Source of the DNA: a candidate division CPR2 bacterium GW2011_GWC2_39_35
Lineage (GTDB): Bacteria; Patescibacteriota; CPR2
DNA: 64,000 bases
NCBI GenBank assembly: GCA_000995065.1
Contig: LBWX01000002.1
Span: 62,586-126,585, forward strand
Direction: 5' to 3'
Made by a program: the position numbers and the translations under genes. Of the stretch, positions 10,176 through 31,427 are shown piece after piece (the first letter of the stretch is position 1; each line of letters opens with the position of its first letter). The notes under the pieces were generated by a model, which was given only the letters and a program-made list of their open reading frames with translations, had not been told where the DNA came from and did no database searches.

Positions 10176-10217
10176 ATCTGACGACTGACGGAGGTCGGTC
10201 GCCAGGAACATCACACA

Positions 10218-10279: not shown

Positions 10280-10418
10280 TTGAACCGCTATGAGCCACTA
10301 TTTAACCAATAAGACCAGTTAGCGAAGTTGGAGGAATATTTTAAATGGCTTTCCGCAATATAAAAAGACCCTTTTAGGCAACCTACAAATGAGTAGGCGG
10401 GGTCTTGTACCTTTACTT

Positions 10419-10817
10419 CTAATGATCAGCTTCTGCCAAAATAACTTCAGATAAACCAAGCTCGTATTTGGCATTTAGCTCCCTAAGAGATATAGGCGAT
10501 TCCAAATCTTGTACTAGTTGATCGAGCTGTTCTACCTCCACCATTGTTATAGATTCTGCTGCTGTCTTTTTGTTCTCCTCGGAAAGATGAGAATAGAATG
10601 TCGAGATCAGATATTCTGCACCCTTTGGTTCATTTGGTAAAGCATTATCGCCATCAGGAAGTTGTAAGTATGGAATTTGAATGCGATCTTCTTCTTGCTT
10701 CTTAAATCGAAGTGCCATGCGATCGGCAATCCGATCCCAAACAGGTTTTTCGTCCGGCGTTAATACCGTTAGTGTCCCACCAGGAATAAATCGACTTTCA
10801 CTCATTTGTTTCACCAC
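10419..10817 (-). CDS. hypothetical protein
   Basis: A 132-aa acidic ORF. Confidence 0.4.
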   Translation of the reverse strand: MVKQMSESRFIPGGTLTVLTPDEKPVWDRIADRMALRFKKQEEDRIQIPYLQLPDGDNALPNEPKGAEYLISTFYSHLSEENKKTAAESITMVEVEQLDQLVQDLESPISLRELNAKYELGLSEVILAEADH

Positions 10818-13614: not shown

Positions 13615-13818
13615 ATTCAATGATTTTGGGCGAAACCAGGGGGTTGGATTCAAACCTTTCCAAAAAACAAAAATGGCTCGTTAAAGCCATTGTCTTGCAG
13701 TTTGAATAACGCCTAACCCAGGGTTATTAATTTTGGTTTGAATCCTATTGGCTCCCCGGATCGGACTATCTTCGAACTTTTGGAGTATTTGTGCCTGTGT
13801 GCTAGTGCTTAATACTAA
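13615..13818 (+). repeat. composite intergenic repeat, full copy of subtype A with a subtype-B right end
   Basis: Near-identical to 11533-11680. It then continues TTGGCTCCCCGGATCGGACTATCTTCGAACTTTTGGAG...GCTTAATACTA, as in the copies at 15479, 17714 and 19539. Confidence 0.75.
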
Positions 13819-15270: not shown

Positions 15271-15545
15271 GAATTGACGCTTGCACTATACAATAAAGGG
15301 CTGTTTTTTCAATGATTTTTGACCCCGGATCGGACTATCTTCGAACCAAAAAAATGGCTCGTAAAAGCCATTCTAGATAAATTAAGTTATTTATTTGTGC
15401 AAATCTCGGAAATTATTCGAACTTTTATTTTAGCTCTACAAAGCCCTAAAACGGCTTAATTTCCAGTTTCTGCCACATTGGCTCCCCGGATCGGGCAATC
15501 TTCGAACTTTTGGAGCGGTTGTGCCTTTACGCATCTGCTTAAGCT
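15271..15545 (+). repeat. composite intergenic repeat, subtype B (about 270 bp) with two tRNA-end-like modules
   Basis: Contains TTGACGCTTGCACTATA, TTCAATGATTTT, GACCCCGGATCGGACTATCTTCGAACC, the hairpin AATGGCTCGTAAAAGCCATT and TTGGCTCCCCGGATCGGGCAATCTTCGAAC. It is a homolog of 19375-19620. Confidence 0.75.
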
Positions 15546-17713: not shown

Positions 17714-17790
17714 CTGGCTCCCCGGATCGGGCAATCTTCGAACTTCTGGAGCAATTATGCTTATGTGCTAGTGCCTAATAATTTGCATTT
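17714..17790 (+). repeat. composite intergenic repeat, partial copy (TTGGCTCCCCGGATCGGGCAATCTTCGAAC module)
   Basis: CTGGCTCCCCGGATCGGGCAATCTTCGAACTTCTGGAGCAATTATGC...GCCTAATAAT matches the right half of subtype B. Confidence 0.7.
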
Positions 17791-17801: not shown

Positions 17802-19235
17802 TTAGGGGATAAGATTATTGATGATCTTCTCCCCTAAGAATGAATAAATGCTTCCCTCTTTGTTGAAATCTATAGAATTATCGGCTACTAGTTCTGCAAG
17901 TGTCTGTCCAACTGCTACTTCCCATGGCTTAGAGCTTCCAGTGATGCCCACTAAATCGTTCCTAATGCTTTTAATATCATAATTCATCCGGTCAAAATCA
18001 CTTTCTTTAAACCCGGACATCACCAAGAAATTAGGGTGTGCTGTGTTAACATCGAGCCAATGTTCAATACCAGCCTGAAGCGCAGCCCAATCCATTCCAA
18101 GCTTACTCAGAACCTCATCAGTTAAGAGCAAATTTTCAGCATTTCTACATGATAGCTTCAACCGTACTACGGGCAGAATGTCATCTATCGTCCCATCGCT
18201 ATCATCTCGATCTCTTAACGAATAGGCCGTTGCATTGTCATAAACGGCTTGAATAATGTTCTTAGCTTCTTGTTCATAATCGTTCAGTTCACTAATCCCA
18301 CCAGTAGGGCAAGGATATACCTTGACTCTTCCATTTGATGACCGAACCGCTTGCTGCCATATACGCTCATCGTCTTCGCCCTCGACTAATAGCAATGGGG
18401 CTTCATTAAAAATGTTCGATAATGGATGTGCTCCAAAAACCGGCAGAATGCTTCTGTATACAGGAGTAATTGGTTTAAATTCTAAGCAGGTTTGCCCTGA
18501 CTTCATGAATGCGATATGAGCGTTATGTTGAGACTCTAGAGCCCCTAAAATTGCTGTACTATGTGTTGACAACACAATCTTAAATGCATTTTCTTCAACC
18601 AAATTTATAAGAAAATGCATTAGACGTACTTGCAAGTCTGGATGTAAATGAACGTCGGGCTCGTCAAGAAATAACATATTGTCTTTGTTCGGCACACATT
18701 CTTTGCTGAAAACTAAGCATTCGATACCTAAAGAGATTAATTCACTTTCCCCGCTACTAATCATCCCGGCATTAAGTTCTGTGTCATCTCCCTTTTGATA
18801 GATTTTAAAAGTGGTATCATCTCTCGCAATCCTGATATTATCAAGCAAGTCATTGATTTTATCTACATAAAGGTCAAATGTATAAGCATGATCGCTTCTT
18901 TTGCCTCTCTCTATCTCTCTTAATATCAACGTTTCCAACTTCCTGTACTGCACTACGCTTTGCTGTCTGAATTGGTTATATTGATTATTTCTACGGGTAT
19001 CGGGTAGCCATGAGGGGCTATCTGTTAAATTTTGTTCAATACCGGCTTCATAAATTAAGGATCCGCCTCGTTCGGGCGTTATATATTTAGCTTTACCAAA
19101 AGCAGGATTATTCGAAAGAAGGTTCTGCTCTACTGTTCTTATTAGCCTGCTCTTGCCACATCCATTTTTGCCGAGAACAATGTTAACGTTATTTAGATTT
19201 ATTAAGCTGTAACCACTGATATTAATAATTTCCAT
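17802..19235 (-). CDS. OLD-family ATP-dependent endonuclease (N-terminal ABC-like ATPase plus C-terminal TOPRIM), class-1-like and stand-alone
   Basis: Walker A (GKNGCGKSRL), Walker B plus H-loop (LFLDEPDVHLHPD...LSTHS), and a C-terminal TOPRIM-like LLLVEGEDDE. Confidence 0.75.
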   Translation of the reverse strand: MEIINISGYSLINLNNVNIVLGKNGCGKSRLIRTVEQNLLSNNPAFGKAKYITPERGGSLIYEAGIEQNLTDSPSWLPDTRRNNQYNQFRQQSVVQYRKLETLILREIERGKRSDHAYTFDLYVDKINDLLDNIRIARDDTTFKIYQKGDDTELNAGMISSGESELISLGIECLVFSKECVPNKDNMLFLDEPDVHLHPDLQVRLMHFLINLVEENAFKIVLSTHSTAILGALESQHNAHIAFMKSGQTCLEFKPITPVYRSILPVFGAHPLSNIFNEAPLLLVEGEDDERIWQQAVRSSNGRVKVYPCPTGGISELNDYEQEAKNIIQAVYDNATAYSLRDRDDSDGTIDDILPVVRLKLSCRNAENLLLTDEVLSKLGMDWAALQAGIEHWLDVNTAHPNFLVMSGFKESDFDRMNYDIKSIRNDLVGITGSSKPWEVAVGQTLAELVADNSIDFNKEGSIYSFLGEKIINNLIP

Positions 19236-19374: not shown

Positions 19375-19620
19375 AAATTTCAATGATTTTAGACCCCGGA
19401 TCGGTCAATCTTCGAACCAAAAAAATGGCTGTTCAGAGCCATTATCGATAAATTGGGTTATTTTTGGTCCAATCTTTTCCAAAAATTCGAACCGATATTT
19501 TAGCTCTACAGAGCCCTAAAACAGGCTAATTTACAGATTCTACCATATTGGCTCCCCGGATCGGGCAATCTTCGAACTTTTGGAGCGTTTGTGCTTATAT
19601 GCCAGCGCTTAATACTAAAT
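19375..19620 (+). repeat. composite intergenic repeat, full copy of subtype B
   Basis: Contains TTCAATGATTTTAGACCCCGGATCGGTCAATCTTCGAACC, the hairpin AATGGCTGTTCAGAGCCATT and TTGGCTCCCCGGATCGGGCAATCTTCGAACTTTTGGAGCG...GCTTAATACTA. Confidence 0.75.
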
Positions 19621-19625: not shown

Positions 19626-20666
19626 CTAAGGTTTTTCAACCCTATCAATCATAAACTTAACTGTTTCATTCATATTGATTGGCTTTATAACAATATCCGG
19701 ATGTTTTGATTGAAACACTCTAAATATTTCATCAGCAAATGCCTGACCGATTGTAGGCACTTTGTCGAAGTCTAAAATTATAACCTTAAATTTTGACAAA
19801 TTTACCGTTACTCTTCTGGCCTGCGACCTTGAAACATAAATAGTACCCATGGCATATAGTTTGATTCTGATTTCTGTCTTATCAAAAGCCATTTCTTCCG
19901 AATCCGTTTGATATTTAGCAAAAACATCGCTGAGATGTTTCCCTGATTCGACTGAAATAGTAAACGTTACCCTAGTTCCTTTTTTGGCAGGCTTTATATC
20001 TTCGACAAAAACATCATTTATTAGATTATCTATTCTTAGCCGATATTCAAAACTATCCAAAACAAAGATATCTGCCGCTTTTGAAGTAAAAAAGATACCC
20101 TCGCCCGAATGAGCTTGAGGCGCCGTTGTTGTTTTGCCTTTTAAAAGATCCTGAATTGCTTCCAGTTCGGATTTTAAGCCTCTCTTTTTCATAATGTTTC
20201 TAAAAACCCCAATGCCAGAGTCCGAGATGGTAAACTTTAAATTATTATTCTCTTTAATAACTTCTATGTCGATTTCTGAAGACAGGGAATGCTCAATTGC
20301 ATTATTAAGCATCTCTGAAAACGCGAAAGTAAAGATGCTTAAAACATTCTCGGTTAGCTTGCCCAGGAAAGGCGTTTGTTTTTGGATTCGATCTAAAATC
20401 TCATGTTCCTGCAAATTAACATTTTTAAGTCTGATGTGGGTTCTATTTCTTAAAAGATCCGCATCCCGAGGAAGCGCATATTCGGTAAAACGACCGCCTC
20501 CAGAACGAATGAGTTCACCCTTTTGGACCAAGTCCTTTAATATCGAGGTAATATATTGCCTAGAAACCTCTATGTCTAAATTCGCTAAAATATCAGAAAG
20601 ACCAAGTTTTCCTTTTACATGTGCGACATTAAATATTGTTTGTGTCACTTTTTTCTTAATATCCAT
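19626..20666 (-). CDS. wHTH plus GHKL (histidine-kinase-like) ATPase plus C-terminal STAS-like (DUF4325-type) domain protein
   Basis: A winged-helix-like N-terminus, GHKL motifs (NNAIEH, DSGIG, GEG) and a C-terminal STAS-like fold (VIILDFDKV...). Confidence 0.55.
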   Translation of the reverse strand: MDIKKKVTQTIFNVAHVKGKLGLSDILANLDIEVSRQYITSILKDLVQKGELIRSGGGRFTEYALPRDADLLRNRTHIRLKNVNLQEHEILDRIQKQTPFLGKLTENVLSIFTFAFSEMLNNAIEHSLSSEIDIEVIKENNNLKFTISDSGIGVFRNIMKKRGLKSELEAIQDLLKGKTTTAPQAHSGEGIFFTSKAADIFVLDSFEYRLRIDNLINDVFVEDIKPAKKGTRVTFTISVESGKHLSDVFAKYQTDSEEMAFDKTEIRIKLYAMGTIYVSRSQARRVTVNLSKFKVIILDFDKVPTIGQAFADEIFRVFQSKHPDIVIKPINMNETVKFMIDRVEKP

Positions 20667-20703
20667 ATGAATCCTTCTTATTGTACGACTATTATAGTAT
20701 AAC

Positions 20704-20756
20704 GTAAACTCAATGTAAACAACAATATTTTCAATGTAAACTCAATGTAAACTGAG
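20704..20756. promoter_or_regulatory. CAATGTAAAC direct repeats (3-4 copies) upstream of the HTH-GHKL-STAS gene, putative operator iterons
   Basis: AAACTCAATGTAAAC...TTCAATGTAAACTCAATGTAAACTGA lies immediately upstream of the gene start at 20666. Confidence 0.45.
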
Positions 20757-20772
20757 GTTTTTTAGAGAAGTA

Positions 20773-20822
20773 AGGATCGAACTTTTGGAGCAGTTGTGCC
20801 TTTATGCAACTGCTTAATATAT
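20773..20822 (+). repeat. composite intergenic repeat, partial right-end copy
   Basis: GGATCGAACTTTTGGAGCAGTTGTGCCTTTATGCAACTGCTTAATATA matches the right ends of the subtype-B copies. Confidence 0.6.
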
Positions 20823-20935
20823 TATAGCCAAAGCCCTCTTTAAAAGAAACGTCCCCAGTATCAATAAATCAATACTGGGGACAGCCCCGCAAACCCTTAT
20901 GATGTTTTCTACCGCAGAAGGATGGAAGCGACCGA

Positions 20936-21905: not shown

Positions 21906-22008
21906 TTGGGAGAAGATTGCTGAAGAATTAGAAATATTTCAAAGAATATCGCAATTTCAATTACAAAAAAATTAACATTCAAAAATTTCCTGCTAGATAA
22001 AATATGTC

Positions 22009-22413
22009 TTATCTTTTAGCTGAAGAGACTTTAAAAGTAGAGTGGTCTATATCAAATGCGAAAAAGAAAGCCATTCTATCATCGTTAGATAACCCAAAAA
22101 TAATTTTAAAAGCGCTTTTCCCATAGTCTACCCTAAAGAGATTCTTCTCATATCCGAACAAATTGACTAGCCTTTTACCCTCTTTGCTATTTGGCCTAAC
22201 CGGTTGAATGTCCGCCCCAACGCCTTTACTTTTTAGCTCCAATAAGCTTTCTGAGTCTATCAATGCGGAAATTAAATTTTTAACCTTAATAACGTGGGTA
22301 TCATCTAGATAAAGCTTTTCAACCGGAAAATGAGAATATTTATAATTAGAAAAACAAGGGAGAAAACCACGCTTTGCCATTTTATATATCGTTACTTTTA
22401 AAGTAGCTACCAA
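22009..22413 (-). CDS. putative toxin, RelE/ParE-like
   Basis: A 134-aa ORF downstream of and overlapping the Panacea-domain gene. The segment FRVDYGKSAFKIIFG resembles the RelE/ParE core. Confidence 0.35.
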   Translation of the reverse strand: MVATLKVTIYKMAKRGFLPCFSNYKYSHFPVEKLYLDDTHVIKVKNLISALIDSESLLELKSKGVGADIQPVRPNSKEGKRLVNLFGYEKNLFRVDYGKSAFKIIFGLSNDDRMAFFFAFDIDHSTFKVSSAKR

Positions 22414-22834
22414 TCTCAGCTTTCGGTATAATATTATTTTCCCCTTCTTGATAAAACTTATTCCAAGGCGTATTTGGCTTATGGGTTTGTTTTACTAAAA
22501 AAGAAGCAGAAAACTTACCAACATCTTCCCAAATCTTATTTAGAAAATCACCTAGTTGTTGGGATATATTTTGCGGTTCGGCAGGAACATCAAAAACAGT
22601 AATGGGGAAATTCCCACAACTTTTGAATGCACTATAAACATTTTTAACAACTGGGCCTAAGGCCCAAGCCTCTATTTCTTCATCAAAAATAGGATTCTTG
22701 TATTGAGCGATATATTTACCTTGAGCAAAATAAAGAAGCTTTTGAAGCTTTAAGTTTGTCAAATCGTTCTCGTCTATATGGCTTGCCAATACCACAAAAT
22801 AATTAGCTATGTCGATTGCATTTACTTTATCCAT
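22382..22834 (-). CDS. Panacea-domain (DUF4065, SocA/PanA-like) putative antitoxin
   Basis: KLQKLLYFAQGKYIAQY...EAWALGPVVKNVY matches the DUF4065/Panacea signature. Confidence 0.6.
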   Translation of the reverse strand: MDKVNAIDIANYFVVLASHIDENDLTNLKLQKLLYFAQGKYIAQYKNPIFDEEIEAWALGPVVKNVYSAFKSCGNFPITVFDVPAEPQNISQQLGDFLNKIWEDVGKFSASFLVKQTHKPNTPWNKFYQEGENNIIPKAEIGSYFKSNDI

Positions 22835-22977
22835 TTTTGTTTCCTCTACTAAAGCTTATTCTTATTAAATAATAATGCTTGTCTAATAAAATTATACTTT
22901 ATTATAGGAAAGATTTACAGAAATTCTATAATGCTATAATAATAACTAATAAGAATTAAATAAAGAAGTGATGAATT

Positions 22978-23766
22978 ATGTCTGACGAATTTAATGAAGG
23001 GCGATTTTCCGATGAGGAGCTAAAAGAATATGAAAAGATACATCAAATATATTTTGATAACAAGGGTTTTCAGAAAATGTGGAATTACTTTTTGGATATC
23101 ACCAAGAAAGAATACTTTAACGATGTTATAAAAGAGCTAAGAAAAAAATACGAAATTCCTCCGAACGGTTACAAGCCAGATGAAGACGGTTGCTATCGTT
23201 TTCCTCCACGAAACACAATTTTTGAAGACAATTTTCAAAAAGAACTAGCCCTTCGAAATGAAATAATCGAGAAAATATGTCGTAAATATCAACTTCATAA
23301 TTTCGATTTTTCTGACGTAGTGCTTCGTTATGTTTTTTATAATTATATTGAGTTATCAAACCAACTTGGAGCTTGCGGATTATTTATAGTATCCGATGTT
23401 ATTAAAGAAAAAGAAGACCCATTTAGTGAATTTGTTCAACAAAGCGATGATATGGCTTATCCTATTGCCATAAGAATAAGCCCTTATGCTAGCCAAAGAG
23501 ATTTAATTGATTTTATAAAAAACAAAATTGTTTGGAAAAAAGAAATTGAATTTTTGCAAAACAAATATAAGGACAAAAATATAAAAATTGGTAGAGTTAA
23601 AGCCAAAAACCAATCGACTCAGGAACGAAATGACTTTATATACCAAAATAGAGATAAAACATTAAAGGAGGTTAGGGAGCTTCTAGCCGATAAAAATATA
23701 TTCTTAGACGATGGACATATTGCAAAAATAATATCGCTTGAGAAGCAAAAAAGAAAAGAAGTGTAG
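22978..23766 (+). CDS. hypothetical protein
   Basis: A 262-aa ORF and the first gene of the co-directional block 22978-31427. Confidence 0.4.
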   Translation: MSDEFNEGRFSDEELKEYEKIHQIYFDNKGFQKMWNYFLDITKKEYFNDVIKELRKKYEIPPNGYKPDEDGCYRFPPRNTIFEDNFQKELALRNEIIEKICRKYQLHNFDFSDVVLRYVFYNYIELSNQLGACGLFIVSDVIKEKEDPFSEFVQQSDDMAYPIAIRISPYASQRDLIDFIKNKIVWKKEIEFLQNKYKDKNIKIGRVKAKNQSTQERNDFIYQNRDKTLKEVRELLADKNIFLDDGHIAKIISLEKQKRKEV

Positions 23767-23978
23767 TGCACAAGAAATGATATGTAACACATAAAGCTCT
23801 TATACTTATTTTTATCTATGAAATAACCTTTGGAATATAAGGTTATTTTTTATTTTAAAAACTATGGAAGAAACAAAGAGCGACAGATTAACAAACGAAA
23901 AACTTGAAGCCAAATACAATTTGACTGGCTTTTTTAAGTTGCTCTTAGAAATTGATATGAGAGTTAACCCACATTTAT

Positions 23979-24239
23979 ATGAAAATAACGGAAATACAAA
24001 TTATCCCGATCAAAGCAAATAACGGCTTAGTTGCCTTTGGCAGTGTTGTTATTAACGATAGCCTATATTTGGCTTCTATTGGGATACACAAGAAGAGAGA
24101 TGGGAGCGGTTATAGGATTACCTACCCCACTAAGAAAATCGGCAATAAAGATATGAATATTTTTCATCCAATCAATAAAGAAACAAGCAAACTAATTGAG
24201 GACGCAATAATATCAAAGGCTAAAGAAATATTAAATTAA
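23979..24239 (+). CDS. spoVG: SpoVG-family protein
   Basis: MKITEIQIIPIKANNGLVAFGSVVINDSLYLASIGIHKK..FHPIN aligns with SpoVG (MEVTDVRLRRV..GRMRAIASITLD..FVVHDIRVI....HPIN). Confidence 0.7.
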   Translation: MKITEIQIIPIKANNGLVAFGSVVINDSLYLASIGIHKKRDGSGYRITYPTKKIGNKDMNIFHPINKETSKLIEDAIISKAKEILN

Positions 24240-24271
24240 TTTAAAAATGTATTTAAGAAAAAAGTAATGAA

Positions 24272-25414
24272 ATGCTGGATACCATAATCTTACAAATTCA
24301 TATTGATAAGTGCTTTATGATTGACTTTAAAATGTTTAACACAACTAAAGAAGAAGTGTTTAATACGAAAACGTCATTTAAAAAATGGATGAATAATCCA
24401 ACGGCACAGGATAAAAAAGATGGGATTTATAAGCCTAGGCTGACGCTAATTAAAAGAGGTAGGGTATTTACTATAACGATTGAATTTTCTGCTCCAAAGA
24501 TAATTTTTAATAATAACTTAGACGAGTTAGAAGAAACTAATTTTGATAACGTTGTTAAAACATTACAGGAACGAATGAAAAGTATGGGAGTATGGATTTT
24601 GACGCTGAACATTGAAGAAGCTGATGTTTTATCTTTTCACCCGTCAAAAAACATAGCACTAAGCGGAGGCTATACGGCAAGTTTTGCAATAAGGGAATTA
24701 AGAAAAATAGATTTAAGTAAAAGGTTTGATCTTGACGAAAAGAAATTTAGAAATGGCGAAATTTTGCAGTTATATACCAAATCTCATTCCTTTGTTCTTT
24801 ACGATAAAATCAATGACCTTAAAAAACCTAAAAGCAGAGCAACAGACAAAGACCGGACACCTCAACAAATAGATTTGTTTGAATATATTCAGAAGGAAAA
24901 CAAAAGACTTGAAGTGTTGAGGCTAGAAGTAAGATTAAGCTCAAAACGAAAAATGAATGAACAATTGGAAAAACTGGGATATGCCCCAAATCCTCCGTTC
25001 AAAGAGATCTTTAAACAAGAATTATGCAAAAAAATTATTAACCAATACTGGAATGATTTTTTTAGCGACAACCAATTTATCTTTAACATCAATAGTAACC
25101 CACAAGATATATTACAGTTGATACTTCGGAGGTATCCAAAGATAAAAATTATAAAAGCTATCAATATTGTTGGCCTTTATTCGCTTTGTAGAGATGAGGA
25201 AGGAATGAGAGGATTTAGAAAAACAATTGATAGCCATAAACCCAAAAGCAATTGGGATACGGTAAAAAAATATATCAAGATGCTTGATGATGAAATTTTT
25301 GCTAATCCTACTTGGAAATTTATACCGGAAATAAAGCAACAAATTGATCGCTTTGAACCTTTTCGCACAGATAATTTATCCACAGAAAATGATTTGATGT
25401 GTAAAGAAAAGTAA
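24272..25414 (+). CDS. hypothetical protein (possible replication/initiator-like protein, guess only)
   Basis: A 380-aa basic protein with no confident motif match. The function is inferred from context only. Confidence 0.4.
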   Translation: MLDTIILQIHIDKCFMIDFKMFNTTKEEVFNTKTSFKKWMNNPTAQDKKDGIYKPRLTLIKRGRVFTITIEFSAPKIIFNNNLDELEETNFDNVVKTLQERMKSMGVWILTLNIEEADVLSFHPSKNIALSGGYTASFAIRELRKIDLSKRFDLDEKKFRNGEILQLYTKSHSFVLYDKINDLKKPKSRATDKDRTPQQIDLFEYIQKENKRLEVLRLEVRLSSKRKMNEQLEKLGYAPNPPFKEIFKQELCKKIINQYWNDFFSDNQFIFNINSNPQDILQLILRRYPKIKIIKAINIVGLYSLCRDEEGMRGFRKTIDSHKPKSNWDTVKKYIKMLDDEIFANPTWKFIPEIKQQIDRFEPFRTDNLSTENDLMCKEK

Positions 25415-25441
25415 AGTATAGTTTTATTTAGGTGTTATTAT

Positions 25442-27538
25442 ATGAACGAAGAATTTTATACAGCCCAAGAGCTAGCCGATAAACTAAAAGTCAATATAAT
25501 GACTATTTATAGGTATATTAACTCTGGGAAATTGAATGCTTATAAAACAGGCAAGGATTTTAGGGTTTCTAAAGAAGATTACGAAGTATTCCTAAAAAAT
25601 AAGCAAAGAAATTTGTTAGAAGAAAAAAATAACCAGATTTTGCAACTCTCCAAAGAGATTGAAAAGCTAAAAAGTAACATTAAAAAGCAAAGGTATGGAT
25701 TGGTTTGGGTAGATGTTCCGGAAGCTTTTGAGGACGATGTTGAAAATAAAATACCTATCCTTAAAGAAGAAAAATCTCTTGCTATTGAAAATAATGACGA
25801 TAAACCAACCCATCTTTTAATTGAAGGTGACAATTATCACGCCCTGACTTGCTTGAATTACACGCATAAGGGCAAGGTTGATGTAATCTATATTGATCCC
25901 CCCTACAACACGGGGAATGACGGATTTAGATACAAAGATAAGCGCATCCTTGATAAATACCCAGACGGAACAGATGTCCCCAAAGATAGCCCCTACAGAC
26001 ACAGTTATTGGTTATCATTTATGAAAAAGAGAATTGAGTTAGCAAAAACATTACTAACGAGCAATGGTGTTATGTTTATTTCAATCGGAAATGACGAAAT
26101 TGCACAATTGAAACTACTTTGCGATGAAATATTCGGGGAAAAAGATTCTCACAATATAATTCACTGGAAGAAGAACCAAAAACCACAGAACGCTTCGAAC
26201 ACAATTTCCGAATCTGCTGAGTATGTTTTAGTATATTTCAACGAGAAGCCTATTAAACTCGTTAGAGGTATGAAGGGAACAAGAACTGATGAAAGAGGTT
26301 CTTTTAAACCCTCTCCTCTCTTCACATTTGATGACAGAAAGAGAAGAACACAAACCGTGCCTAAAGGGACTCCAATTGAGTGCAAGGTATGGAAAAAGGG
26401 CAAACTTCAGGCAGTTAGGAATAAACTTGCCTATCTTAATATCCTTGATGAACCAATTATCAAAAATGGCATTCTGCAGAACGATGTAAGAGTAGATGGT
26501 CAGTGGAGAAAAACGGATACAAATGGTGAGTTTCAAAAAGTAGTAGAAGACAATCGCTTATTCGTTAACTCCAACGGCTTCCCAAATGAGAAGTCTTATC
26601 GTGACGAAGACTCTAAAAATGTTAATACCAATCTATGGCTTAATGCTGGCTATAATGAACTTGGAAAACAGTTATTAGATGAGATTTTAGGGCAAGACAA
26701 TGTTTTTCCTTATCCCAAACCCATAGAACTTATAAAAGAAATACTGAGATCAATAAACAAGCAAGATGCGATTATGCTCGACTTTTTCGCTGGTTCTGGA
26801 ACTTCAGGACACGCGCTATTAGACCTTAACAGAGAAGATGACGGCAAAAGACAATTTATATTAGTCACGGATAATGAGAACAACATAATGTCAGAAGTTT
26901 GCTACCCACGGATAAGAAATGTGATAAATGGATATGATTTTTCTGGAAAAGAGAAACAAGTCCTATTTGAAAAGACACTTACACTTACCGACCTAAAGAA
27001 AGCCGATGCTATATTGGAAGAAATTGACGGTATTACCAAAGAAAACGAAGAGTCAAAGAGGTGGGACAAGATTTCTAAGTCTATTAATGACGGCTTACTA
27101 AAGATGGTCGGAGAGAAGAACATTGAAGATAAGAAGGGTGGTCTTGGCAACTCCGTTAAGTTCTATAGGGCAGATTTCGTAGGTGAAAATAACATAATGC
27201 ACTCCACTGACAAAGATAAGTTAGAGTTAGCCTATAATGCTGGGGAATTATTAGCCATTGCAGAGAATACCCTCTATGAACAAAAGAAAAACCAATACTA
27301 TCAAATTTTTAAAGATAAAGATCGTTTTACTGCCATTTACTTCAGAGAAGAAATGGATGAATATGACGAGTTTATTGAAGAAGTTCGGGGCATTCGGGGT
27401 AAAGAAATCTCTGTTTATGTCTTTAGCTGGGAATCAGACGAGTCTATTTATGAGCTTGAGGACTTGAAAAATGTTCGAATAAAAACCATTCCTCAGCCAA
27501 TAGTAGAAATTTATAAACAAATTTATAACTTGATATAG
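25442..27538 (+). CDS. DNA methyltransferase (Type III Mod-like, beta-class N6A/N4C) with an N-terminal excisionase/MerR-type HTH
   Basis: N-terminal HTH (YTAQELADKLKVNIMTIYRYINSGKL), motif IV (DPPY, within VIYIDPPYNTG) upstream of motif I (DFFAGSGTSGHA). Confidence 0.8.
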   Translation: MNEEFYTAQELADKLKVNIMTIYRYINSGKLNAYKTGKDFRVSKEDYEVFLKNKQRNLLEEKNNQILQLSKEIEKLKSNIKKQRYGLVWVDVPEAFEDDVENKIPILKEEKSLAIENNDDKPTHLLIEGDNYHALTCLNYTHKGKVDVIYIDPPYNTGNDGFRYKDKRILDKYPDGTDVPKDSPYRHSYWLSFMKKRIELAKTLLTSNGVMFISIGNDEIAQLKLLCDEIFGEKDSHNIIHWKKNQKPQNASNTISESAEYVLVYFNEKPIKLVRGMKGTRTDERGSFKPSPLFTFDDRKRRTQTVPKGTPIECKVWKKGKLQAVRNKLAYLNILDEPIIKNGILQNDVRVDGQWRKTDTNGEFQKVVEDNRLFVNSNGFPNEKSYRDEDSKNVNTNLWLNAGYNELGKQLLDEILGQDNVFPYPKPIELIKEILRSINKQDAIMLDFFAGSGTSGHALLDLNREDDGKRQFILVTDNENNIMSEVCYPRIRNVINGYDFSGKEKQVLFEKTLTLTDLKKADAILEEIDGITKENEESKRWDKISKSINDGLLKMVGEKNIEDKKGGLGNSVKFYRADFVGENNIMHSTDKDKLELAYNAGELLAIAENTLYEQKKNQYYQIFKDKDRFTAIYFREEMDEYDEFIEEVRGIRGKEISVYVFSWESDESIYELEDLKNVRIKTIPQPIVEIYKQIYNLI

Positions 27539-27543
27539 GTAAT

Positions 27544-29922
27544 ATGAAACAATTTAATCCATTACAATTTCAGAGAGAAACAATCGATAAGTTATCAGAT
27601 ATTTTTGTTAAGTTATGGAAAGAAGACGGAAGAGCACTGCCTATTGTTTTAAAATCGCCTACTGGTAGCGGGAAGACTTTTATGGCTGCAAATTTAATTC
27701 GCAGCTTAAACCACCTTCCACAATGGCAAGAAGAAAAATCATTTATTTGGATCACGTTTAGTGACGATCTCTCTATGCAAAGTAAAAAGAAATTTGAAGA
27801 GTATTTTGAGAATAACCTTGAAAACAATTTGTTAACTGTAAATGAAATCAACAAGGGAAAGTTATCTAATAATGACATTATATTCCTTAATTGGCAAAAG
27901 ATAGTTTCTAAGAGTGCCGAAACTAGAGTATTAAGAAGGCCTGACGAGGAGATTATGCGAAAAGAGAAAGGGGCGTATTGGGAAGATTTTATTGATGGAA
28001 CTCAGGCCGATGAGAGGGAGATTATTCTTATTATTGATGAAGCCCATAAAAACAAAGGCACAACATTGGCTAAAGAGGTAATTGACTACATAAATCCTAA
28101 GATAATTCTGCACGTCACTGCCACCCCCAGTAAAGAAGATGCATTGGAAGCATATGAGCTTGGATCGATGATAAATGTTGATAGGAAAGAGGTTGTCGAA
28201 GAAGGATTGATTAAAGAAAAGATTGTCATTCAAACGGAAGAAGATCTTGAGAGGCATCAAGGGCAAGATTTTGATAAAGTCCTGCTTGATCTTGGAATCC
28301 AGAAAAGAAACGAACTAAAAGAAGAGTTAAAGTCTCTAGGTAAAGATATTAACCCTTTGATGCTTATACAATTACCTAATGATGACAATAAATTGATCGA
28401 GATGGCTAAGGAAACTAAAGAGTCTGTTGTTTGTGATTACTTAAAAGAAGTTGGAATCCCTGAAACAAAAATTGCTAAATGGTTTGATGGTAGACAGGAA
28501 AATATGGATTTAATAACTGAAAATGATAGTGACGTTGAAGTTATGTTATTTAAACAAGCGGCTGGGACTGGTTGGGACTGTCCCAGAGCCTCCGTCCTCA
28601 TAATGTTTAGGGAGATAAAATCAAATACATTTTATACCCAAACAGTTGGCCGAATATTAAGAATGCCTGAACCTGAATTAAAAGAGGATTATAAGAATAA
28701 CGAAAACTTGAGAACTGGTCATTTATATACCAATTACAAGCGTAATGAGGTTGAAATACCAGACCAATCAGCAAGGAACAAACCTTTTGTCAACTTTTCG
28801 AATATTAAAGAAGGCGTAAAAAATATTTCGTTACAGTCAGAGTATATTTCTCGAGTTGATTATGGAGACATCCCAAGATCTTATAAATTTCAAAAAGGCT
28901 TTATTGATTCGATGAATAGATATTTTGGTATAACGCAGGATGATATTTTGGGAAAAGCTCAAAGGAAATTAGAGAATAAGGGAATTGATTTAGATGGAAA
29001 GCTAACGAACCAGATTATTGTAAACGCAAAATTTGAAGATTTTGATCATTTGAATTATGAATTTAGTAAACAAGGTAAGGATCTTGAAATTGAAATGTCC
29101 ACTAATGATGTTGAGAAAACTTTTAATTATATCTGCTATCAACTTTTGCAGGAGCAAGACAACGAAAAAGCAAAATACACGAATATTGCAAGATCTTGGA
29201 GCACTATTAAATCGGCGATAAGAGTCTGGCTAAACCATACAGTTAGCGAGAATAGCGACCATTTTTATAGAATTTTTGTTAAGGACATAAATAAAGGTGC
29301 TTCAAGCAAATTTAGACCAGCAATAACACAAGCCTTGATTGACTTTAAGCCATTATGTGAACAAATAATCAACGAAAGAAAAGTTGCTCACGAGCAAAAG
29401 GAAGCACCTATTTTTTCTATTCAAGGTCAATATTCTTTCACTGAAGATTACGAAGAAATATCCCAGAAGATTTGCGCTCTCGGCAAATTTTATCTACCTA
29501 AAAAAGATTTTAAAGGAAAAAAGAACGAATTAGACTTTAAGGATTATATAGATAACCTAGATGATTCAATTGATTGGTGGTTTAAAAATGGAGATTATGG
29601 CAAATCTTATTATGCAATTAAATATTTTAATTCAACCGACAATAAGGAAGCTCTCTTTTATCCTGATTGGATAATTTTATTCAAAGATGGACGAATTGGG
29701 ATTTTTGATACCAAAGAGGGAGAAACTGCCAAATCTCAGGAGACTAAAGATAAAGCAGGCGCATTAGCACAAAAGTTAAATGATTTTGGATCTGGCTATG
29801 TTGGCGGTATTGTAGTTAAAGTTTCCGGAATCTGGTATTACAACGACACTTCAAGTTATGATTTCCGAGACGGTAATATTGAGCAAGATAAAAATTGGAA
29901 GAGATTTGAAGAGCTCTTATGA
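27544..29922 (+). CDS. Type III restriction enzyme Res subunit (SF2 helicase plus C-terminal PD-(D/E)xK nuclease)
   Basis: Helicase motif I (PTGSGKTF), motif II (IIDEAHKN), motif III (TATP), motif VI (QTVGRILR), and a C-terminal PD...D-x-K (YPDWIILFKDGRIGIFDTKEG). Confidence 0.75.
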   Translation: MKQFNPLQFQRETIDKLSDIFVKLWKEDGRALPIVLKSPTGSGKTFMAANLIRSLNHLPQWQEEKSFIWITFSDDLSMQSKKKFEEYFENNLENNLLTVNEINKGKLSNNDIIFLNWQKIVSKSAETRVLRRPDEEIMRKEKGAYWEDFIDGTQADEREIILIIDEAHKNKGTTLAKEVIDYINPKIILHVTATPSKEDALEAYELGSMINVDRKEVVEEGLIKEKIVIQTEEDLERHQGQDFDKVLLDLGIQKRNELKEELKSLGKDINPLMLIQLPNDDNKLIEMAKETKESVVCDYLKEVGIPETKIAKWFDGRQENMDLITENDSDVEVMLFKQAAGTGWDCPRASVLIMFREIKSNTFYTQTVGRILRMPEPELKEDYKNNENLRTGHLYTNYKRNEVEIPDQSARNKPFVNFSNIKEGVKNISLQSEYISRVDYGDIPRSYKFQKGFIDSMNRYFGITQDDILGKAQRKLENKGIDLDGKLTNQIIVNAKFEDFDHLNYEFSKQGKDLEIEMSTNDVEKTFNYICYQLLQEQDNEKAKYTNIARSWSTIKSAIRVWLNHTVSENSDHFYRIFVKDINKGASSKFRPAITQALIDFKPLCEQIINERKVAHEQKEAPIFSIQGQYSFTEDYEEISQKICALGKFYLPKKDFKGKKNELDFKDYIDNLDDSIDWWFKNGDYGKSYYAIKYFNSTDNKEALFYPDWIILFKDGRIGIFDTKEGETAKSQETKDKAGALAQKLNDFGSGYVGGIVVKVSGIWYYNDTSSYDFRDGNIEQDKNWKRFEELL

Positions 29923-31427
29923 AAGCAATAATCTTGGCCAGAGTTTCAACTGAAGAACAAAAGGAAGCAAATCACTCATTGCCAGCCCAATTAATAAGAT
30001 TGCAGAAATACTGCCAAGAGAAAAAACTGGATGTAGTTAAGGAATTTAGTTTTGACGAATCGGCTTGGAAAACCGAAAGGCAGCAGTTTGAGGAAATTGT
30101 TGAAATGCTTCAAAAATCAAAGGAAAAGATGGTTTTGTGTTGTGATAAGATTGATCGTTTAACAAGAAGCTTTAGTAAAGAATTAGTTACTCTAGAGGAT
30201 TTAAGAAGAACTGGCAAAATTGAACTACATTTTCCTTCTGATAATATCGTTTTGCATAGAGATTCACCTGCCACCGATTTATTTAGATTTACGATGGGCG
30301 TAAGCCTTGCCAAATACTATTCCGATACTACAAGCGATAATGTCAAAAGAGCCAACGAAACTAAAATTAAAAATGGCGAATGGGCTGGCTGGGCTCCAAT
30401 TGGCTACATCAATACAGAAGACGAAAAGGGTAATAAAGATATAGAAGTTGATGAGATAAGAAGCCCCTTTATTATAAAAATGTTTGAGCTATATGCTTCA
30501 GGTAACTATTCAATGAGGCAAATTAAAGAACAATTGGACAAGGTAGGACTAAAAAGCAAATCAAAAGACCCAAAACCCTTAACCATAAGTATGGTAAAAC
30601 ATACTCTAAACAACCCGTTCTATTACGGAATAATGAGGATTAAAGGCGAATTATATCCTCATAAATACCCTCCGCTAATTACTAAGCATTTATTTGATAA
30701 GGCCCAAGCGGTTAGTGCCGGATGGCATAAAAAACCCTTTAAATATGCCGCTAAGCCCTTTGTTCTTCGAGGCATGATAAAGTGTGCTGATTGCGGTTGC
30801 ACAATCACCCCTGAGACCTCTAAGGGGCATGCATATTACAGTTGCACCAACTATCACAGGATTCATCCAAAAAGGATTTACGTCAAAGAAGAAGACCTTT
30901 TAAAACAAATCTATGAAATTTTGGATAATATTCAATTAACAGACGAGCAAATAAAAGAGTTAACCGAGGACTTAAAGCAAACGAACAAAGCTGAGAACCG
31001 TTTCTTTAAGAACAGCGTTCAAGAATTATGGAAAGAATACAATAGATTTGAAAATCGTATTAGTAAGCTCACGGATGAAAAATATGACGGTAGTATTACT
31101 GAGGATTTCTACAACAAAAAGTTTAAGGAATATACTGAAAAACAATCTAAAATGATGGAAAGTATAAACAAACATCATAAGGCTAATCAAGAGCATCATA
31201 TTACTGCAAATAGTATCTTAAACCTTGCCAAACGAGCTCGTGAAATATTTGAAAGTTCTGAACCGGCAGAAAAAAGGCAATTATTAAATTACATACTTCA
31301 GAACCTAGAATTGAAGGACAAAAAACTCTTATATAAAGCAAAAACACCGTTTGATACGATGCTTTTGATACATGATAGTTCTAACTGGCTCCCGGGGTCG
31401 GATTCGAACCGACGACCAATTGGTTAA
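29919..31427 (+). CDS. large serine recombinase (resolvase-domain integrase)
   Basis: N-terminal resolvase catalytic region (AIILARVSTEEQ), a recombinase domain, a zinc ribbon (CADCGCTITPE...YYSC) and a coiled-coil C-terminus. The ORF overlaps the Res gene by 4 nt and runs into the tRNA-Asn gene. Confidence 0.85.
   Translation: MKAIILARVSTEEQKEANHSLPAQLIRLQKYCQEKKLDVVKEFSFDESAWKTERQQFEEIVEMLQKSKEKMVLCCDKIDRLTRSFSKELVTLEDLRRTGKIELHFPSDNIVLHRDSPATDLFRFTMGVSLAKYYSDTTSDNVKRANETKIKNGEWAGWAPIGYINTEDEKGNKDIEVDEIRSPFIIKMFELYASGNYSMRQIKEQLDKVGLKSKSKDPKPLTISMVKHTLNNPFYYGIMRIKGELYPHKYPPLITKHLFDKAQAVSAGWHKKPFKYAAKPFVLRGMIKCADCGCTITPETSKGHAYYSCTNYHRIHPKRIYVKEEDLLKQIYEILDNIQLTDEQIKELTEDLKQTNKAENRFFKNSVQELWKEYNRFENRISKLTDEKYDGSITEDFYNKKFKEYTEKQSKMMESINKHHKANQEHHITANSILNLAKRAREIFESSEPAEKRQLLNYILQNLELKDKKLLYKAKTPFDTMLLIHDSSNWLPGSDSNRRPIG

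What the first reader, a model, noticed from the sequence alone, without database searches (positions are those of the whole stretch)
19626..20760. Protein with a wHTH, a GHKL ATPase and a STAS-like domain, with CAATGTAAAC iterons in its own promoter
This is an uncommon architecture: a DNA-binding N-terminus, a histidine-kinase-like ATPase (NNAIEH/DSGIG/GEG), and a STAS/anti-sigma-antagonist-like C-terminus.

Immediately upstream there are three to four direct repeats of CAATGTAAAC, suggesting autoregulation.

The gene sits alone between two copies of the composite repeat, next to the OLD nuclease cassette. It may be a sensor or regulator, or a defence-related single-gene system. Its function is unknown.
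Basis: partly seen in the sequence, partly recalled or inferred. Interest (0 to 1): 0.55.

Follow-up and report, generated by a model that had tools for sequence, protein, structure and literature searches.

The report
Self-repressed kinase fused to pseudosubstrate STAS
A stand-alone gene of a candidate-phylum (CPR2) bacterium encodes one protein that joins a DNA-binding domain, an anti-sigma-type kinase domain and a STAS domain lacking the usual phosphorylated serine. It almost certainly shuts off its own promoter through four phased repeats, and it belongs to a very large, uncharacterised family built from the same parts as the recently described CapK/CapS and VapK/VapS immune regulators.

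Summary
Window 19626-20666 (- strand) encodes a 346-aa wHTH / GHKL / STAS (Pfam DUF4325) protein. Its promoter carries three exact and one degenerate 11-bp repeat.

The architecture is not rare: there are more than 7,800 clusters at 90% identity, in at least 581 species genomes (mostly CPR), plus 57 viral or prophage contigs.

The repeats are a real operator, not chance. A TTKACAA box, in helically phased direct or inverted pairs, lies upstream of 65 of 77 homologues against 15 of 887 control genes (p about 1e-73). In the window the boxes overlap the -35 hexamer and spacer of an 11-of-12 sigma-70-type promoter.

- The STAS domain belongs to the same Pfam family as VapS, the substrate of the kinase VapK.
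- However, the phospho-acceptor Ser of VapS is an invariant Gln here (252 of 253 members).
- The gene is monocistronic and has no conserved partner.

Best reading: a self-repressed, single-chain partner switch in which a kinase is fused to a pseudosubstrate. It is a new variant of the CapK/CapS and VapKSC kind. Its signal and output are not known. A defence role is plausible but unproven.

The parts
19626..20666 (-). Complete coding sequence, 346 aa plus stop, of the wHTH-GHKL-STAS protein. It is identical to the 'putative histidine kinase' of candidate division CPR2 bacterium GW2011_GWC1_41_48.
   Evidence: P0001, 100% identity.
20442..20666 (-). Residues 1-75: winged helix-turn-helix of MarR/ArsR/PadR type. 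The recognition helix lies around V34-S-R-Q-Y-I.
19896..20441 (-). Residues 76-257: GHKL (Bergerat-fold) domain of the anti-sigma-factor Ser-kinase type. It carries the N box E118-MLN-N122-AIEH126-S, the G1 box D149-S-G-I-G153, and the lid/G2 region K176-G-K-T-T-T...H186-S-G-E-G190.
19629..19895 (-). Residues 258-346: STAS-like domain (Pfam DUF4325). S279-R-S281 at the N-cap of helix 1 is invariant. Q308 at the N-cap of helix 2 is invariant and sits where SpoIIAA, CapS and VapS carry the phosphorylated Ser.
20699..20752 (-). Operator: four 11-bp direct repeats, GTTTACATTGA on the coding strand. They lie at 20742-20752, 20731-20741, 20710-20720 and 20699-20709 (the last degenerate, GTTTACGTTAT). 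Spacing is 11, 21 and 11, so all four sit on one face of the helix.
   Evidence: Family-wide conservation of TTKACAA boxes is shown.
20691..20719 (-). Sigma-70-type promoter: -35 TTTACA (20719-20714, identical with repeat 3), a 17-nt spacer that contains repeat 4, and -10 TATAAT (20696-20691).
   Evidence: 11 of 12 matches, the best in the region.
20672..20679 (-). Shine-Dalgarno-like AAGAAGGA, 5 nt before the ATG.
   Evidence: Read directly from the sequence.
20850..20883 (-). Intrinsic-terminator-like hairpin (15-bp stem followed by a T run) that closes the upstream 178-aa ORF and insulates the gene.
19424..19443 (-). Terminator-like hairpin followed by a T run, downstream of the gene and before the OLD/PARIS-like ATPase gene. 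The gene is therefore monocistronic.
   Evidence: A separate promoter-like site for the ATPase gene lies at 19360-19331.
19549..19614 (+). A copy of the 66-nt intergenic repeat, TGGCTCCCCGGATCGGGCAATCTTCGAAC...CTTAATA, just 3' of the gene. It is flanking context, not shown to be functionally linked.
20777..20819 (+). A partial copy (distal 43 nt) of the same intergenic repeat, upstream of the operator.

Best explanation
The gene is a self-contained, monocistronic unit. It encodes a one-component 'partner switch in cis'.

**Shown by comparative sequence evidence.** The N-terminal wHTH recognises TTKACAA-type boxes. In this genome four 11-bp copies (GTTTACATTGA) lie on one face of the helix and cover the -35 hexamer and spacer of the gene's own promoter. 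The protein therefore represses its own transcription, probably as a cooperative oligomer.

**Shown.** The middle domain is an ATP-binding GHKL domain of the SpoIIAB/RsbW/VapK Ser-kinase type, with all nucleotide-binding and catalytic motifs intact. The C-terminal domain is a STAS domain of the VapS (DUF4325) family in which the phospho-acceptor Ser is an invariant Gln.

**Inferred.**
- The fused STAS domain acts as a non-phosphorylatable pseudosubstrate or antagonist. It docks on the kinase domain in a nucleotide-dependent way and couples that state to oligomerisation and DNA binding.
- A trigger opens the switch, derepresses the gene and frees the kinase. By analogy with CapK/VapK the trigger could be single-stranded DNA or another infection or stress cue.
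- The freed kinase would act on the invariant S279/S281 of its own STAS domain or on a target in trans.

**Family behaviour.** The gene is solitary, sits in very variable contexts, occupies prophage accessory slots and shares the 'enzyme + wHTH + phased repeats' design with SoFic-type Fic proteins. This points to an accessory stress- or phage-responsive module rather than a housekeeping regulator.
For: **Domains and catalytic motifs.**

**Operator.**
- Three exact CAATGTAAAC copies against 0.14 expected.
- It is the only phased cluster in the 64-kb window.
- It overlaps the 11-of-12 promoter match.
- TTKACAA boxes in phased direct pairs (11/12 and 21/22) or inverted pairs occur upstream of 65 of 77 homologues, against 15 of 887 other genes of the same loci (Fisher p 1.6e-73).
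- The same boxes are seen in prophage-borne homologues from genomes of 30-67% GC.
- The recognition helix SRQY goes with ...ACAAT and SR[A/T/V]Y..RF goes with ...ACAACTT.

**Monocistronic unit.** Terminators lie on both sides. There is no conserved neighbour.

**STAS family and Gln.**
- VapS is DUF4325.
- VapS S48 aligns with Q308.
- CapS S54 falls in the same register by inspection of the sequence.
- Q308 is conserved in 252 of 253 members and SRS in 252-253 of 253.

**Precedent.** A GHKL kinase plus STAS plus wHTH controls transcription and a toxin in response to ssDNA (PMC13373217).

**Accessory character.**
- 57 IMG/VR loci have integrase, terminase, portal or tail neighbours.
- Fic/SoFic is the most frequent neighbour, and one such Fic protein shares the wHTH (Prob 96%) and TTTACAA boxes.
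Against: - Nothing here is biochemical. DNA binding, ATP use, kinase activity and the cis docking of STAS on GHKL are all untested.
- TTGACA is also the -35 consensus, so part of the box signal could reflect promoter strength. The multiplicity, the phasing and the extended AA(T/C)T flank argue against that.
- The covariation between helix and box is confounded with phylogeny, because it separates two clades.
- The alignment that places Q308 at the phospho-site rests on weak scores (hhalign Prob 24%, hmmsearch 8.6 bits), although it is anchored by the ILDF strand and by the predicted start of the helix.
- An invariant Gln could equally mean that the GHKL domain is only an ATP-driven clamp with no phosphotransfer.
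- No phosphatase partner is seen.
- There is no PADLOC hit and no hit in deposited phages or plasmids.
- Most CPR neighbours are housekeeping genes, so an ordinary regulatory role is not excluded.
- Only 64 kb of the genome could be scanned for further operators.
Confidence: 0.55

Rival explanations
1. A single-gene anti-phage or abortive-infection system. The kinase domain is a toxin-like effector that phosphorylates host or phage proteins. The fused STAS domain keeps it inactive, and the wHTH keeps it at low dose. Infection releases it.
For: - Distant homologues occupy accessory (moron) slots of prophages, next to integrases or just upstream of terS-terL-portal.
- SoFic-like Fic proteins are the most frequent neighbours, and PDC-S04, RT, AbiJ and ShosT also occur.
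- The window copy lies between a PARIS/OLD-like ATPase, a Panacea toxin-antitoxin pair and a methylase/helicase element.
- VapKSC uses the same domain families and protects against phage (PMC13373217).
- Tight autorepression is typical of toxic modules.
Against: - No PADLOC family matches, even at E of 1 or less.
- Only about 10 of 137 immediate neighbours in CPR genomes hit defence models. The others are housekeeping or unknown.
- There is no match in 50,697 phage or 72,556 plasmid records.
- No toxicity or protection data exist.
Confidence: 0.25
2. An ordinary transcription factor of CPR bacteria with a regulon. The GHKL-STAS part serves only as an ATP or ligand sensing and oligomerisation module, with no phosphotransfer. 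Autoregulation is one of several outputs.
For: - The family is very abundant in CPR genomes, which have few regulators.
- Neighbours are mostly housekeeping genes.
- The phospho-acceptor is missing.
- No phosphatase partner is present.
- In L057 an operator-like pair also precedes the downstream gene.
- Four TTGACATT boxes lie at 49975-50090 in the window.
Against: - The window holds only one phased cluster.
- All kinase-type catalytic residues, including the general-base Glu118, are invariant. That is not needed for a pure sensor.
- Distribution is patchy, across phyla and on prophages.
- There is no conserved synteny.
Confidence: 0.15
3. A CapK/CapS-type 'controller of the adjacent pathway'. 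The protein represses the neighbouring OLD/PARIS-like nuclease gene (17802-19235) and releases it on DNA damage.
For: - The regulator lies directly upstream of the immune-type ATPase gene, on the same strand.
- CapKS has this layout.
- In L057 the downstream gene has the operator.
Against: - A terminator-like hairpin (19443-19424) and a separate promoter-like site (19360-19331) separate the two genes.
- There is no TTKACA cluster between 19236 and 19625.
- Across about 76 loci the downstream gene is unrelated, and on the opposite strand in about half of them.
Confidence: 0.05

Closest known systems
VapK / VapS of the VapKSC toxin-antitoxin system (Chambers et al., EMBO J 2026, PMC13373217)
   Same: - The C-terminal domain belongs to the same Pfam family as VapS: DUF4325, VapS E 2.7e-17 against ours 1.4e-15.
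- The GHKL N-box-to-G1 region aligns with VapK (hhalign Prob 56%, E 1.2e-4).
- It shares the signature E-x-x-x-N-x-x-[E/D]-H-S-x-S.
   Different: - One polypeptide instead of two.
- The domain order is wHTH-GHKL-STAS, and there is no N-terminal sensor STAS like that of VapK.
- There is no VapC/PIN partner anywhere near the gene.
- The absolutely conserved phospho-Ser/Thr of VapS (S48) is an invariant Gln.
- A DNA-binding domain has been added.
CapK / CapS (same paper)
   Same: - The same three kinds of domain (HTH, STAS, GHKL kinase) are used for transcription control.
- CapS is a STAS-wHTH autorepressor that binds repeated sites in its own promoter.
- Our wHTH aligns with the CapS wHTH (Prob 54%, E 1.3e-4) and our GHKL with CapK (Prob 31%, E 5e-4).
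   Different: - CapK is HTH-STAS-GHKL and CapS is STAS-wHTH, encoded by two genes placed upstream of an immune operon.
- Here there is a single solitary gene with another domain order.
- The CapS and CapK STAS domains are not DUF4325 by Pfam.
- CapS S54 is replaced by Gln.
- The operators are phased direct repeats rather than wide and narrow palindromes. The distant clade of our family does use inverted repeats.
SpoIIAB-SpoIIAA and RsbW-RsbV partner-switching modules; the fused M. tuberculosis Rv1364c (RsbU-RsbW-RsbV)
   Same: - From my own knowledge, Rv1364c is a precedent for kinase and STAS in one chain.
   Different: - No sigma factor or PP2C phosphatase partner is seen.
- No phosphorylatable Ser lies at helix 2.
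- An N-terminal wHTH is present.
- The output is probably direct DNA binding rather than sigma-factor sequestration.
SoFic-type Fic proteins with a C-terminal wHTH
   Same: - The same wHTH type (hhalign Prob 96%, E 4e-9).
- In L021 the same TTTACAA boxes, spaced 12/12, lie in the Fic gene's own promoter.
- The design is the same: one enzyme for protein modification, a wHTH, and phased repeats.
- Fic proteins are the most frequent neighbours of the family.
   Different: The catalytic part is a Fic AMP-transferase fold, not GHKL-STAS. The wHTH is C-terminal.

Membership tests
Pfam DUF4325 (PF14213, STAS-like) | Match to the family HMM above the gathering score | tested here: met
   57.2 bits against a cut-off of 23, E 1.4e-15, covering the full model 1-64.
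STAS fold | Four-stranded beta-sheet with helices, similar to SpoIIAA/RsbV/SLC26 STAS | tested here: met
   [not shown]
GHKL ATPase/kinase superfamily | N box (E...N), G1 box (DxGxG) and G2 box/lid all present and conserved | tested here: met
   HATPase_c at 29.6 bits against 26.4. E118 is conserved in 252 of 253 members. N121, N122, D149, G151, G153, H186 and G188 are conserved in 253 of 253, and G190 in 252 of 253.
Anti-sigma-factor Ser kinases (SpoIIAB/RsbW) | Closest fold among GHKL proteins | tested here: met
   [not shown]
Anti-sigma-factor Ser kinases (SpoIIAB/RsbW) | Phosphorylates a conserved Ser at the N-terminus of helix 2 of its STAS partner | tested here: not met
   The equivalent position is Gln in 252 of 253 members. 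The neighbouring T305 is conserved in only 139 of 253.
Anti-sigma-factor Ser kinases (SpoIIAB/RsbW) | Binds and inhibits a cognate sigma factor | not testable with these tools
   No sigma-factor gene is adjacent in the window or in the loci examined.
CapK/CapS | Two adjacent genes: HTH-STAS-GHKL followed by STAS-wHTH | tested here: not met
   A single gene with the order wHTH-GHKL-STAS. There is no second STAS or GHKL gene nearby.
CapK/CapS | Located directly upstream of an immune operon that it controls | tested here: inconclusive
   In the window an OLD/PARIS-like gene follows on the same strand, but behind a terminator and without operator boxes. Across the family the downstream genes are unrelated.
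CapK/CapS | The repressor binds repeated sites in its own promoter | tested here: met
   This was met only at the level of sequence: conserved phased boxes overlap the promoter. Binding itself was not tested.
CapK/CapS | [quoted passage not shown] | not testable with these tools
   An assay is needed. The sensor STAS of CapK, with W68, has no counterpart N-terminal to the GHKL domain here.
VapKSC | A DUF4325-type STAS protein (VapS) together with a GHKL kinase | tested here: met
   VapS is DUF4325. The GHKL domain aligns to VapK.
VapKSC | A VapC (PIN) toxin in the same operon | tested here: not met
   There is no PIN domain among the window neighbours or among the 137 immediate neighbours.
VapKSC | An absolutely conserved Ser/Thr phospho-acceptor in the STAS domain | tested here: not met
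   Q308 aligns with VapS S48 and is invariant.
Known anti-phage systems (PADLOC-DB v2) | Match to any defence-protein model | tested here: not met
   0 families at E of 1 or less.
Plasmid or phage replication iterons | Direct repeats next to a replication initiator or origin | tested here: not met
   The repeats lie in the promoter of a regulator gene. No rep gene is present, and the chromosomal dnaA lies at 39914.
Integron gene cassette (for the flanking composite repeat) | An attC-like structured site 3' of each cassette, plus an integron integrase | tested here: not met
   The repeat also flanks the housekeeping gene purD. Folding z-scores are about 0. There is no IntI, and the only recombinase is a large serine recombinase at 29919.

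The most novel reading that the evidence does not exclude
The family is a previously unrecognised single-protein immune or stress sensor-effector. A VapK-like kinase is held off by a covalently attached, non-phosphorylatable VapS-like pseudosubstrate and is kept at low dose by its own wHTH. An infection cue releases the STAS domain, and the kinase then modifies host or phage proteins.

The family is extremely abundant in CPR/Patescibacteria, whose defence repertoire is poorly known, and it is spread by prophages into other phyla. It would be the first partner-switching module that works without phosphorylating its STAS domain.
Probability: 0.25. Interest if true: 0.8.

Novelty: new variant of a known kind. 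Interest (0 to 1): 0.58.

Why it matters
GHKL-kinase/STAS pairs were shown only in 2026 to couple DNA damage to immune-gene expression (CapKS) and to toxin release (VapKSC).

This locus represents a much larger family, with thousands of members. It dominates in candidate-phyla bacteria and also occurs on prophages. In it the same parts are welded into one autoregulated protein, and the phospho-acceptor is systematically replaced by Gln.

If the cis-pseudosubstrate model holds, it would extend partner switching to a form that does not use phosphorylation. It would also give CPR bacteria a candidate stress or phage sensor.

The conserved operator (TTKACAA, phased at 11 and 21 bp) is a ready-made, testable DNA target. 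It is shared with SoFic-type Fic proteins, which points to a portable 'wHTH + iteron' autoregulation cassette for potentially toxic enzymes.

Tried and rejected
- **Integron cassettes.** I first took the gene-flanking 66-nt repeats for attC sites. I rejected this because the repeat also brackets purD, there is no IntI, and it does not fold better than shuffles.
- **tRNA or tmRNA remnants.** ARAGORN and Rfam find nothing at the repeats. Only the first 16 nt resemble the 3' end of tRNA-Asn, so this is left as a side note.
- **Direct alignment of the STAS profile to SpoIIAA.** The result was uninformative (Prob 0.3%), so the register was taken from VapS and CapS instead.
- **Single-sequence phmmer against PDB.** No useful hit. 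The family profile was needed.
- **tblastn against GenBank phages and PLSDB plasmids.** No match.
- **PADLOC.** No match.
- **Search for a conserved partner gene.** 389 neighbour ORFs fall into 366 clusters. The largest cluster (7) is Fic, and there is no phosphatase, sigma factor or PIN.
- **Literature.** Searches for DUF4325, PF14213, STAS-like+GHKL and STAS+HATPase+wHTH gave nothing on this architecture. 'VapS' alone returned only noise.
- **Long family members (444-527 aa).** They were checked for extra informative domains, and none were found.
- **Contigs carrying the identical protein.** All come from the same genomic context, so they add nothing.
Full report
**What is there**

Window 19626-20666 on the - strand is a 346-aa ORF. 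It is identical to a protein annotated 'putative histidine kinase' in candidate division CPR2 bacterium GW2011_GWC1_41_48.

Pfam finds a C-terminal DUF4325 'STAS-like' domain (residues 282-337, E 1.4e-15). It also finds a central HATPase_c / HATPase_c_2 domain (residues 104-239, E 1e-6 and 6e-6). It gives only faint wHTH hits at the N-terminus.

The wHTH becomes clear in three ways:
- with a family profile against PDB (AdcR/MarR 2.5e-4, AspA, ArsR);
- in homologues (MarR_2, HTH_5 and DeoR down to 1e-7);

A separate model of the last 89 residues (pLDDT 80) hits only STAS domains at the top: RsbV 8.3, SLC26 STAS 8.3, RsbS 7.6, SpoIIAA 7.5.

**The repeats**

CAATGTAAAC occurs exactly three times in 64 kb, all within 20711-20752. 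The chance expectation is 0.14, and no shuffle out of 100 reaches three. A degenerate fourth copy lies at 20702-20709.

Read on the coding strand, the unit is GTTTACATTGA. Copies start 85, 74, 53 and 42 nt before the ATG, a spacing of 11, 21 and 11. All four copies therefore face one side of the helix.

The best sigma-70-type match of the region uses the third repeat as its -35 hexamer. It reads TTTACA, 17 nt, TATAAT, an 11-of-12 match, and the fourth repeat sits inside the spacer. An AAGAAGGA ribosome-binding site follows.

A strong terminator-like hairpin (20883-20850) ends the upstream gene. Another (19443-19424) follows our gene, and the next gene has its own promoter-like site. The gene is therefore a monocistronic unit.

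No other phased cluster of boxes exists in the window.

**The repeats are a conserved operator**

I collected 7 loci through exact-protein look-ups. I added 80 genome loci and 57 viral-contig loci.

Upstream of homologues at 50-63% identity, the intergenic DNA is otherwise unrelated. It nevertheless carries 3-5 boxes TTGACAA/TTTACAA with the same 11/12 and 21/22 spacing. The spacing histogram is 11:41, 12:13, 21:19, 22:19.

In the more distant clade (40-46% identity) the same half-site appears as an inverted repeat. It reads TTGACAACTT, about 20 nt, AAGTTGTCAA, and it brackets the -10 region.

Phased direct or inverted pairs occur before 65 of 77 family members. They occur before only 15 of 887 other genes of the same loci (Fisher p 1.6e-73). 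Three of those 15 are divergent neighbours whose upstream window overlaps the target's upstream region.

The box logo is (T)(T)(A)(G/C)TTKACAA(T/C)T.

Prophage-borne members from genomes of 30-67% GC show the same half-site, either direct at 21-22 bp or palindromic.

The flank of the box tracks the recognition helix. SRQY goes with ...ACAAT, and SR[A/T/V]Y..RF goes with ...ACAACTT. This split coincides with the two clades, so it is supportive and not independent evidence.

Autoregulation by the wHTH is thus well supported, although by sequence only.

**How common, and where**

The architecture is not rare.
- More than 7,869 clusters at 90% identity match.
- 2,288 clusters at 50% identity match at E of 1e-3 or less, and 661 at 1e-30 or less.

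Carriers are mostly Patescibacteria/CPR: Saccharibacteria, Microgenomates groups, Parcubacteria groups, Peregrinibacteria and Gracilibacteria. Syntrophaceae, Omnitrophota, Actinomycetota, Planctomycetia, Ignavibacteria and others also carry it.

Neighbours are not conserved. 389 ORFs within three genes of the family member fall into 366 clusters. About half of the downstream genes are on the other strand. Pfam labels are a scatter of housekeeping functions. Only about ten of 137 immediate neighbours match PADLOC models: SoFic x3, PDC-S04 x3, RT, AbiJ, ShosT and PsyrT.

Two loci place the gene beside smpB, and in one of them a tRNA-like 3' end lies just upstream. L006 and L007 share flanks but differ in the gene that follows.

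There is no match in GenBank phages or in PLSDB plasmids, and no PADLOC family matches the protein itself.

IMG/VR, however, holds 57 loci with 33-44% identical homologues. Several IMG/VR contig names begin with ten-digit numbers of the form used for IMG isolate genomes, which I take to mean predicted prophages of sequenced isolates (my reading of the identifiers, not checked). Their neighbours include integrases, small and large terminases, portal, tail and endolysin proteins. In one phage group the gene sits immediately upstream of terS-terL-portal, a typical accessory slot.

**The enzyme part**

Among solved structures the GHKL domain is closest to anti-sigma-factor Ser kinases:

All nucleotide-binding and catalytic positions are invariant or nearly so in 253 aligned members: E118, N121, N122, H126, D149, G151, G153, K176-G-K-x-T-T, H186, G188 and G190. 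A degenerate, inactive domain is therefore unlikely.

**The STAS part and the literature link**

Full-text searches for DUF4325 and PF14213 found nothing on this architecture. A search for STAS + GHKL + anti-phage led to Chambers et al., EMBO J 2026 (PMC13373217).

That paper reports two systems:
- CapK (HTH-STAS-GHKL) is activated by ssDNA. It phosphorylates Ser54 of CapS (STAS-wHTH), an autorepressor, and this derepresses an adjacent immune operon.
- VapK (STAS-GHKL) phosphorylates Ser48 of VapS, a STAS antitoxin, and this releases the PIN toxin VapC.

I took the four sequences from the paper's source data and compared them with our family.
- VapS is a bona fide DUF4325 protein (E 2.7e-17), the same Pfam family as our C-terminal domain. 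The CapS and CapK STAS domains are not.
- Our GHKL profile aligns with VapK (Prob 56%, E 1.2e-4) and CapK (Prob 31%, E 5e-4) over the N box to the G1 box. The three share E-x-x-x-N-x-x-[E/D]-H-S-x-S.
- Our wHTH aligns with that of CapS (Prob 54%).

The key difference is the phospho-acceptor. In both the hmmsearch and the hhalign alignments, VapS Ser48 falls on our Gln308. By the same register, CapS Ser54 (..ATDSSF..) and SpoIIAA Ser58 (..MDSSGLG..) do too; this is read from the sequences, with SpoIIAA taken from memory. Gln308 is conserved in 252 of 253 members. The nearby Thr305 is conserved in only 139.

The canonical phosphorylation site is therefore systematically absent. Instead, an S279-R-S281 motif at the N-cap of STAS helix 1 is invariant. 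It is absent from VapS and CapS.

**Interpretation**

Shown:
- the gene is a solitary, insulated unit;
- its product has a wHTH, a catalytically intact SpoIIAB/VapK-type GHKL domain and a VapS-type STAS domain without the acceptor Ser;
- a conserved, phased operator overlaps its promoter.

Inferred:
- the protein is its own repressor;
- the fused STAS domain behaves as a pseudosubstrate or antagonist of the kinase domain in cis;
- a signal changes this contact, and with it DNA binding and kinase availability. By analogy with CapK/VapK the signal may be ssDNA or another infection or stress cue.

Not known:
- whether the kinase then phosphorylates S279/S281, phosphorylates a target in trans, or phosphorylates nothing at all.

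No PP2C phosphatase, sigma factor or PIN toxin accompanies the gene.

**A shared design with Fic proteins**

The only recurrent neighbour (7 loci) is a Fic/SoFic-like protein.

In L021 its C-terminal wHTH matches our N-terminal wHTH (Prob 96%, E 4e-9). Its own promoter has three TTTACAA boxes at 12-bp spacing. One other Fic neighbour (L084) carries its own 11-bp direct repeats upstream, and L087 carries a longer duplicated motif.

'Protein-modifying enzyme + wHTH + phased repeats in its own promoter' therefore looks like a portable design. This fits an accessory, dose-sensitive module better than a housekeeping regulator.

**Rivals**

- **Single-gene defence or abortive-infection system.** It is compatible with the prophage slots, the Fic neighbours and the island in this window. 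It lacks any direct support and is not enriched in defence neighbourhoods in CPR genomes.
- **Plain transcription factor with a regulon.** It cannot be excluded with 64 kb of sequence. An operator-like pair precedes the downstream gene in L057, and four TTGACATT boxes lie at 49975-50090.
- **CapKS-like controller of the adjacent OLD/PARIS-like ATPase.** It is unlikely here. A terminator, a separate promoter and the lack of boxes all argue against it.

**Verdict**

This is a new variant of the recently defined GHKL-kinase/STAS/HTH regulator kind. It is notable for its abundance, its single-chain design, its conserved operator and the invariant Gln at the phospho-site.

Noticed in passing
window 13749-13814, 15479-15544, 17715-17780, 19549-19614; partial copies at 15323-15346, 19394-19417 and 20777-20819: A family of about 66-nt direct repeats, TGGCTCCCCGGATCGGGCAATCTTCGAACTTTTGGAGC...CTTAATA, all in the same orientation. 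Each lies 40-120 nt after the stop of a minus-strand gene (purD, RhuM, the OLD/PARIS-like ATPase, the wHTH-GHKL-STAS gene and the 178-aa ORF). The first 16 nt resemble the 3' end of tRNA-Asn at 31386-31460. The repeats show no significant RNA fold and no Rfam or tRNA hit. Their nature is unresolved: they could be a REP/MITE-like element, a 3'-UTR element or old att scars.
   Followed up: partly
window 49975-50090: Four TTGACATT boxes lie in the intergenic region upstream of the 240-aa gene 49186-49908. Two are in each orientation, with the right pair 21 nt apart. The region sits inside a type-IV-secretion-like cluster: PrgI at 50129-50857, a VirB4/TraC-like ATPase at 46867-48642 and an M15 peptidase at 44633-45802. 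The core equals the operator core of the target gene, so this may be a second site or merely strong promoters. In L002 a homologue of the target also lies beside such a cluster.
   Followed up: partly
window 17802-19235 (-): A 477-aa ABC-type ATPase (AAA_15/AAA_21) with a VEGEDDE Toprim-like motif. Its best PADLOC hit is the fused AriAB of PARIS (7.6e-19), and its best PDB hit is AriA (2.7e-6). It is short for an OLD or PARIS protein and may be a compact single-chain PARIS/OLD variant.
   Followed up: partly
window 22009-22834 (-): A SocA/Panacea-domain antitoxin (150 aa, E 1.8e-17) overlaps a 134-aa ORF with no Pfam hit. This is probably a Panacea-type toxin-antitoxin pair with an unclassified toxin.
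   Followed up: no
window about 22000-31460: A low-GC (0.31-0.35), positive-skew segment. It encodes a SpoVG-like protein, an HTH_17-N6/N4 DNA methylase (698 aa), a ResIII/SNF2 helicase (792 aa) and a large serine recombinase (29919-31427). The 3' end of the recombinase gene overlaps tRNA-Asn (31386-31460, -). It looks like an integrated element at tRNA-Asn.
   Followed up: no
L021:1143-2174 (-), L084:3843-4898 (+) and five further loci: SoFic-like Fic proteins with a C-terminal wHTH recur near family members. The L021 copy shares the wHTH type and the TTTACAA boxes (12/12 spacing) with the target family. L084 has three CTTGCGCGATT repeats in its promoter.
   Followed up: partly
L057:8936-9075 (the 140 nt upstream of gene 9076-10527): In this deltaproteobacterial MAG, the 483-aa gene downstream of the family member is preceded by TTGACAACTTGTTTACAACT. 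This is the same operator type as the regulator's own promoter. Some distant members may therefore also control the adjacent gene.
   Followed up: no
L006 compared with L007 (downstream of the family member, next to smpB): Two metagenomic contigs share identical flanks: Wzy_C, SmpB, the family member, and later H2TH and PEP-utilizers. They differ in the one or two small ORFs directly after the family member. A tRNA/tmRNA-like 3' end (GGTTCAATTCCGG...CTCCACA) lies about 100 nt upstream of the operator, which suggests an integration hot spot.
   Followed up: no
L001, L004, L005, L008, L010, L012 and others (last box 13-15 nt before the ATG): In many close homologues the last box, TTTACAAT, ends a few nucleotides before the start codon. 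Together with the box 21 nt upstream it forms a TTGACA-17-TACAAT promoter. This would give a leaderless or nearly leaderless mRNA, unlike the window copy, which has a leader with a Shine-Dalgarno sequence.
   Followed up: no
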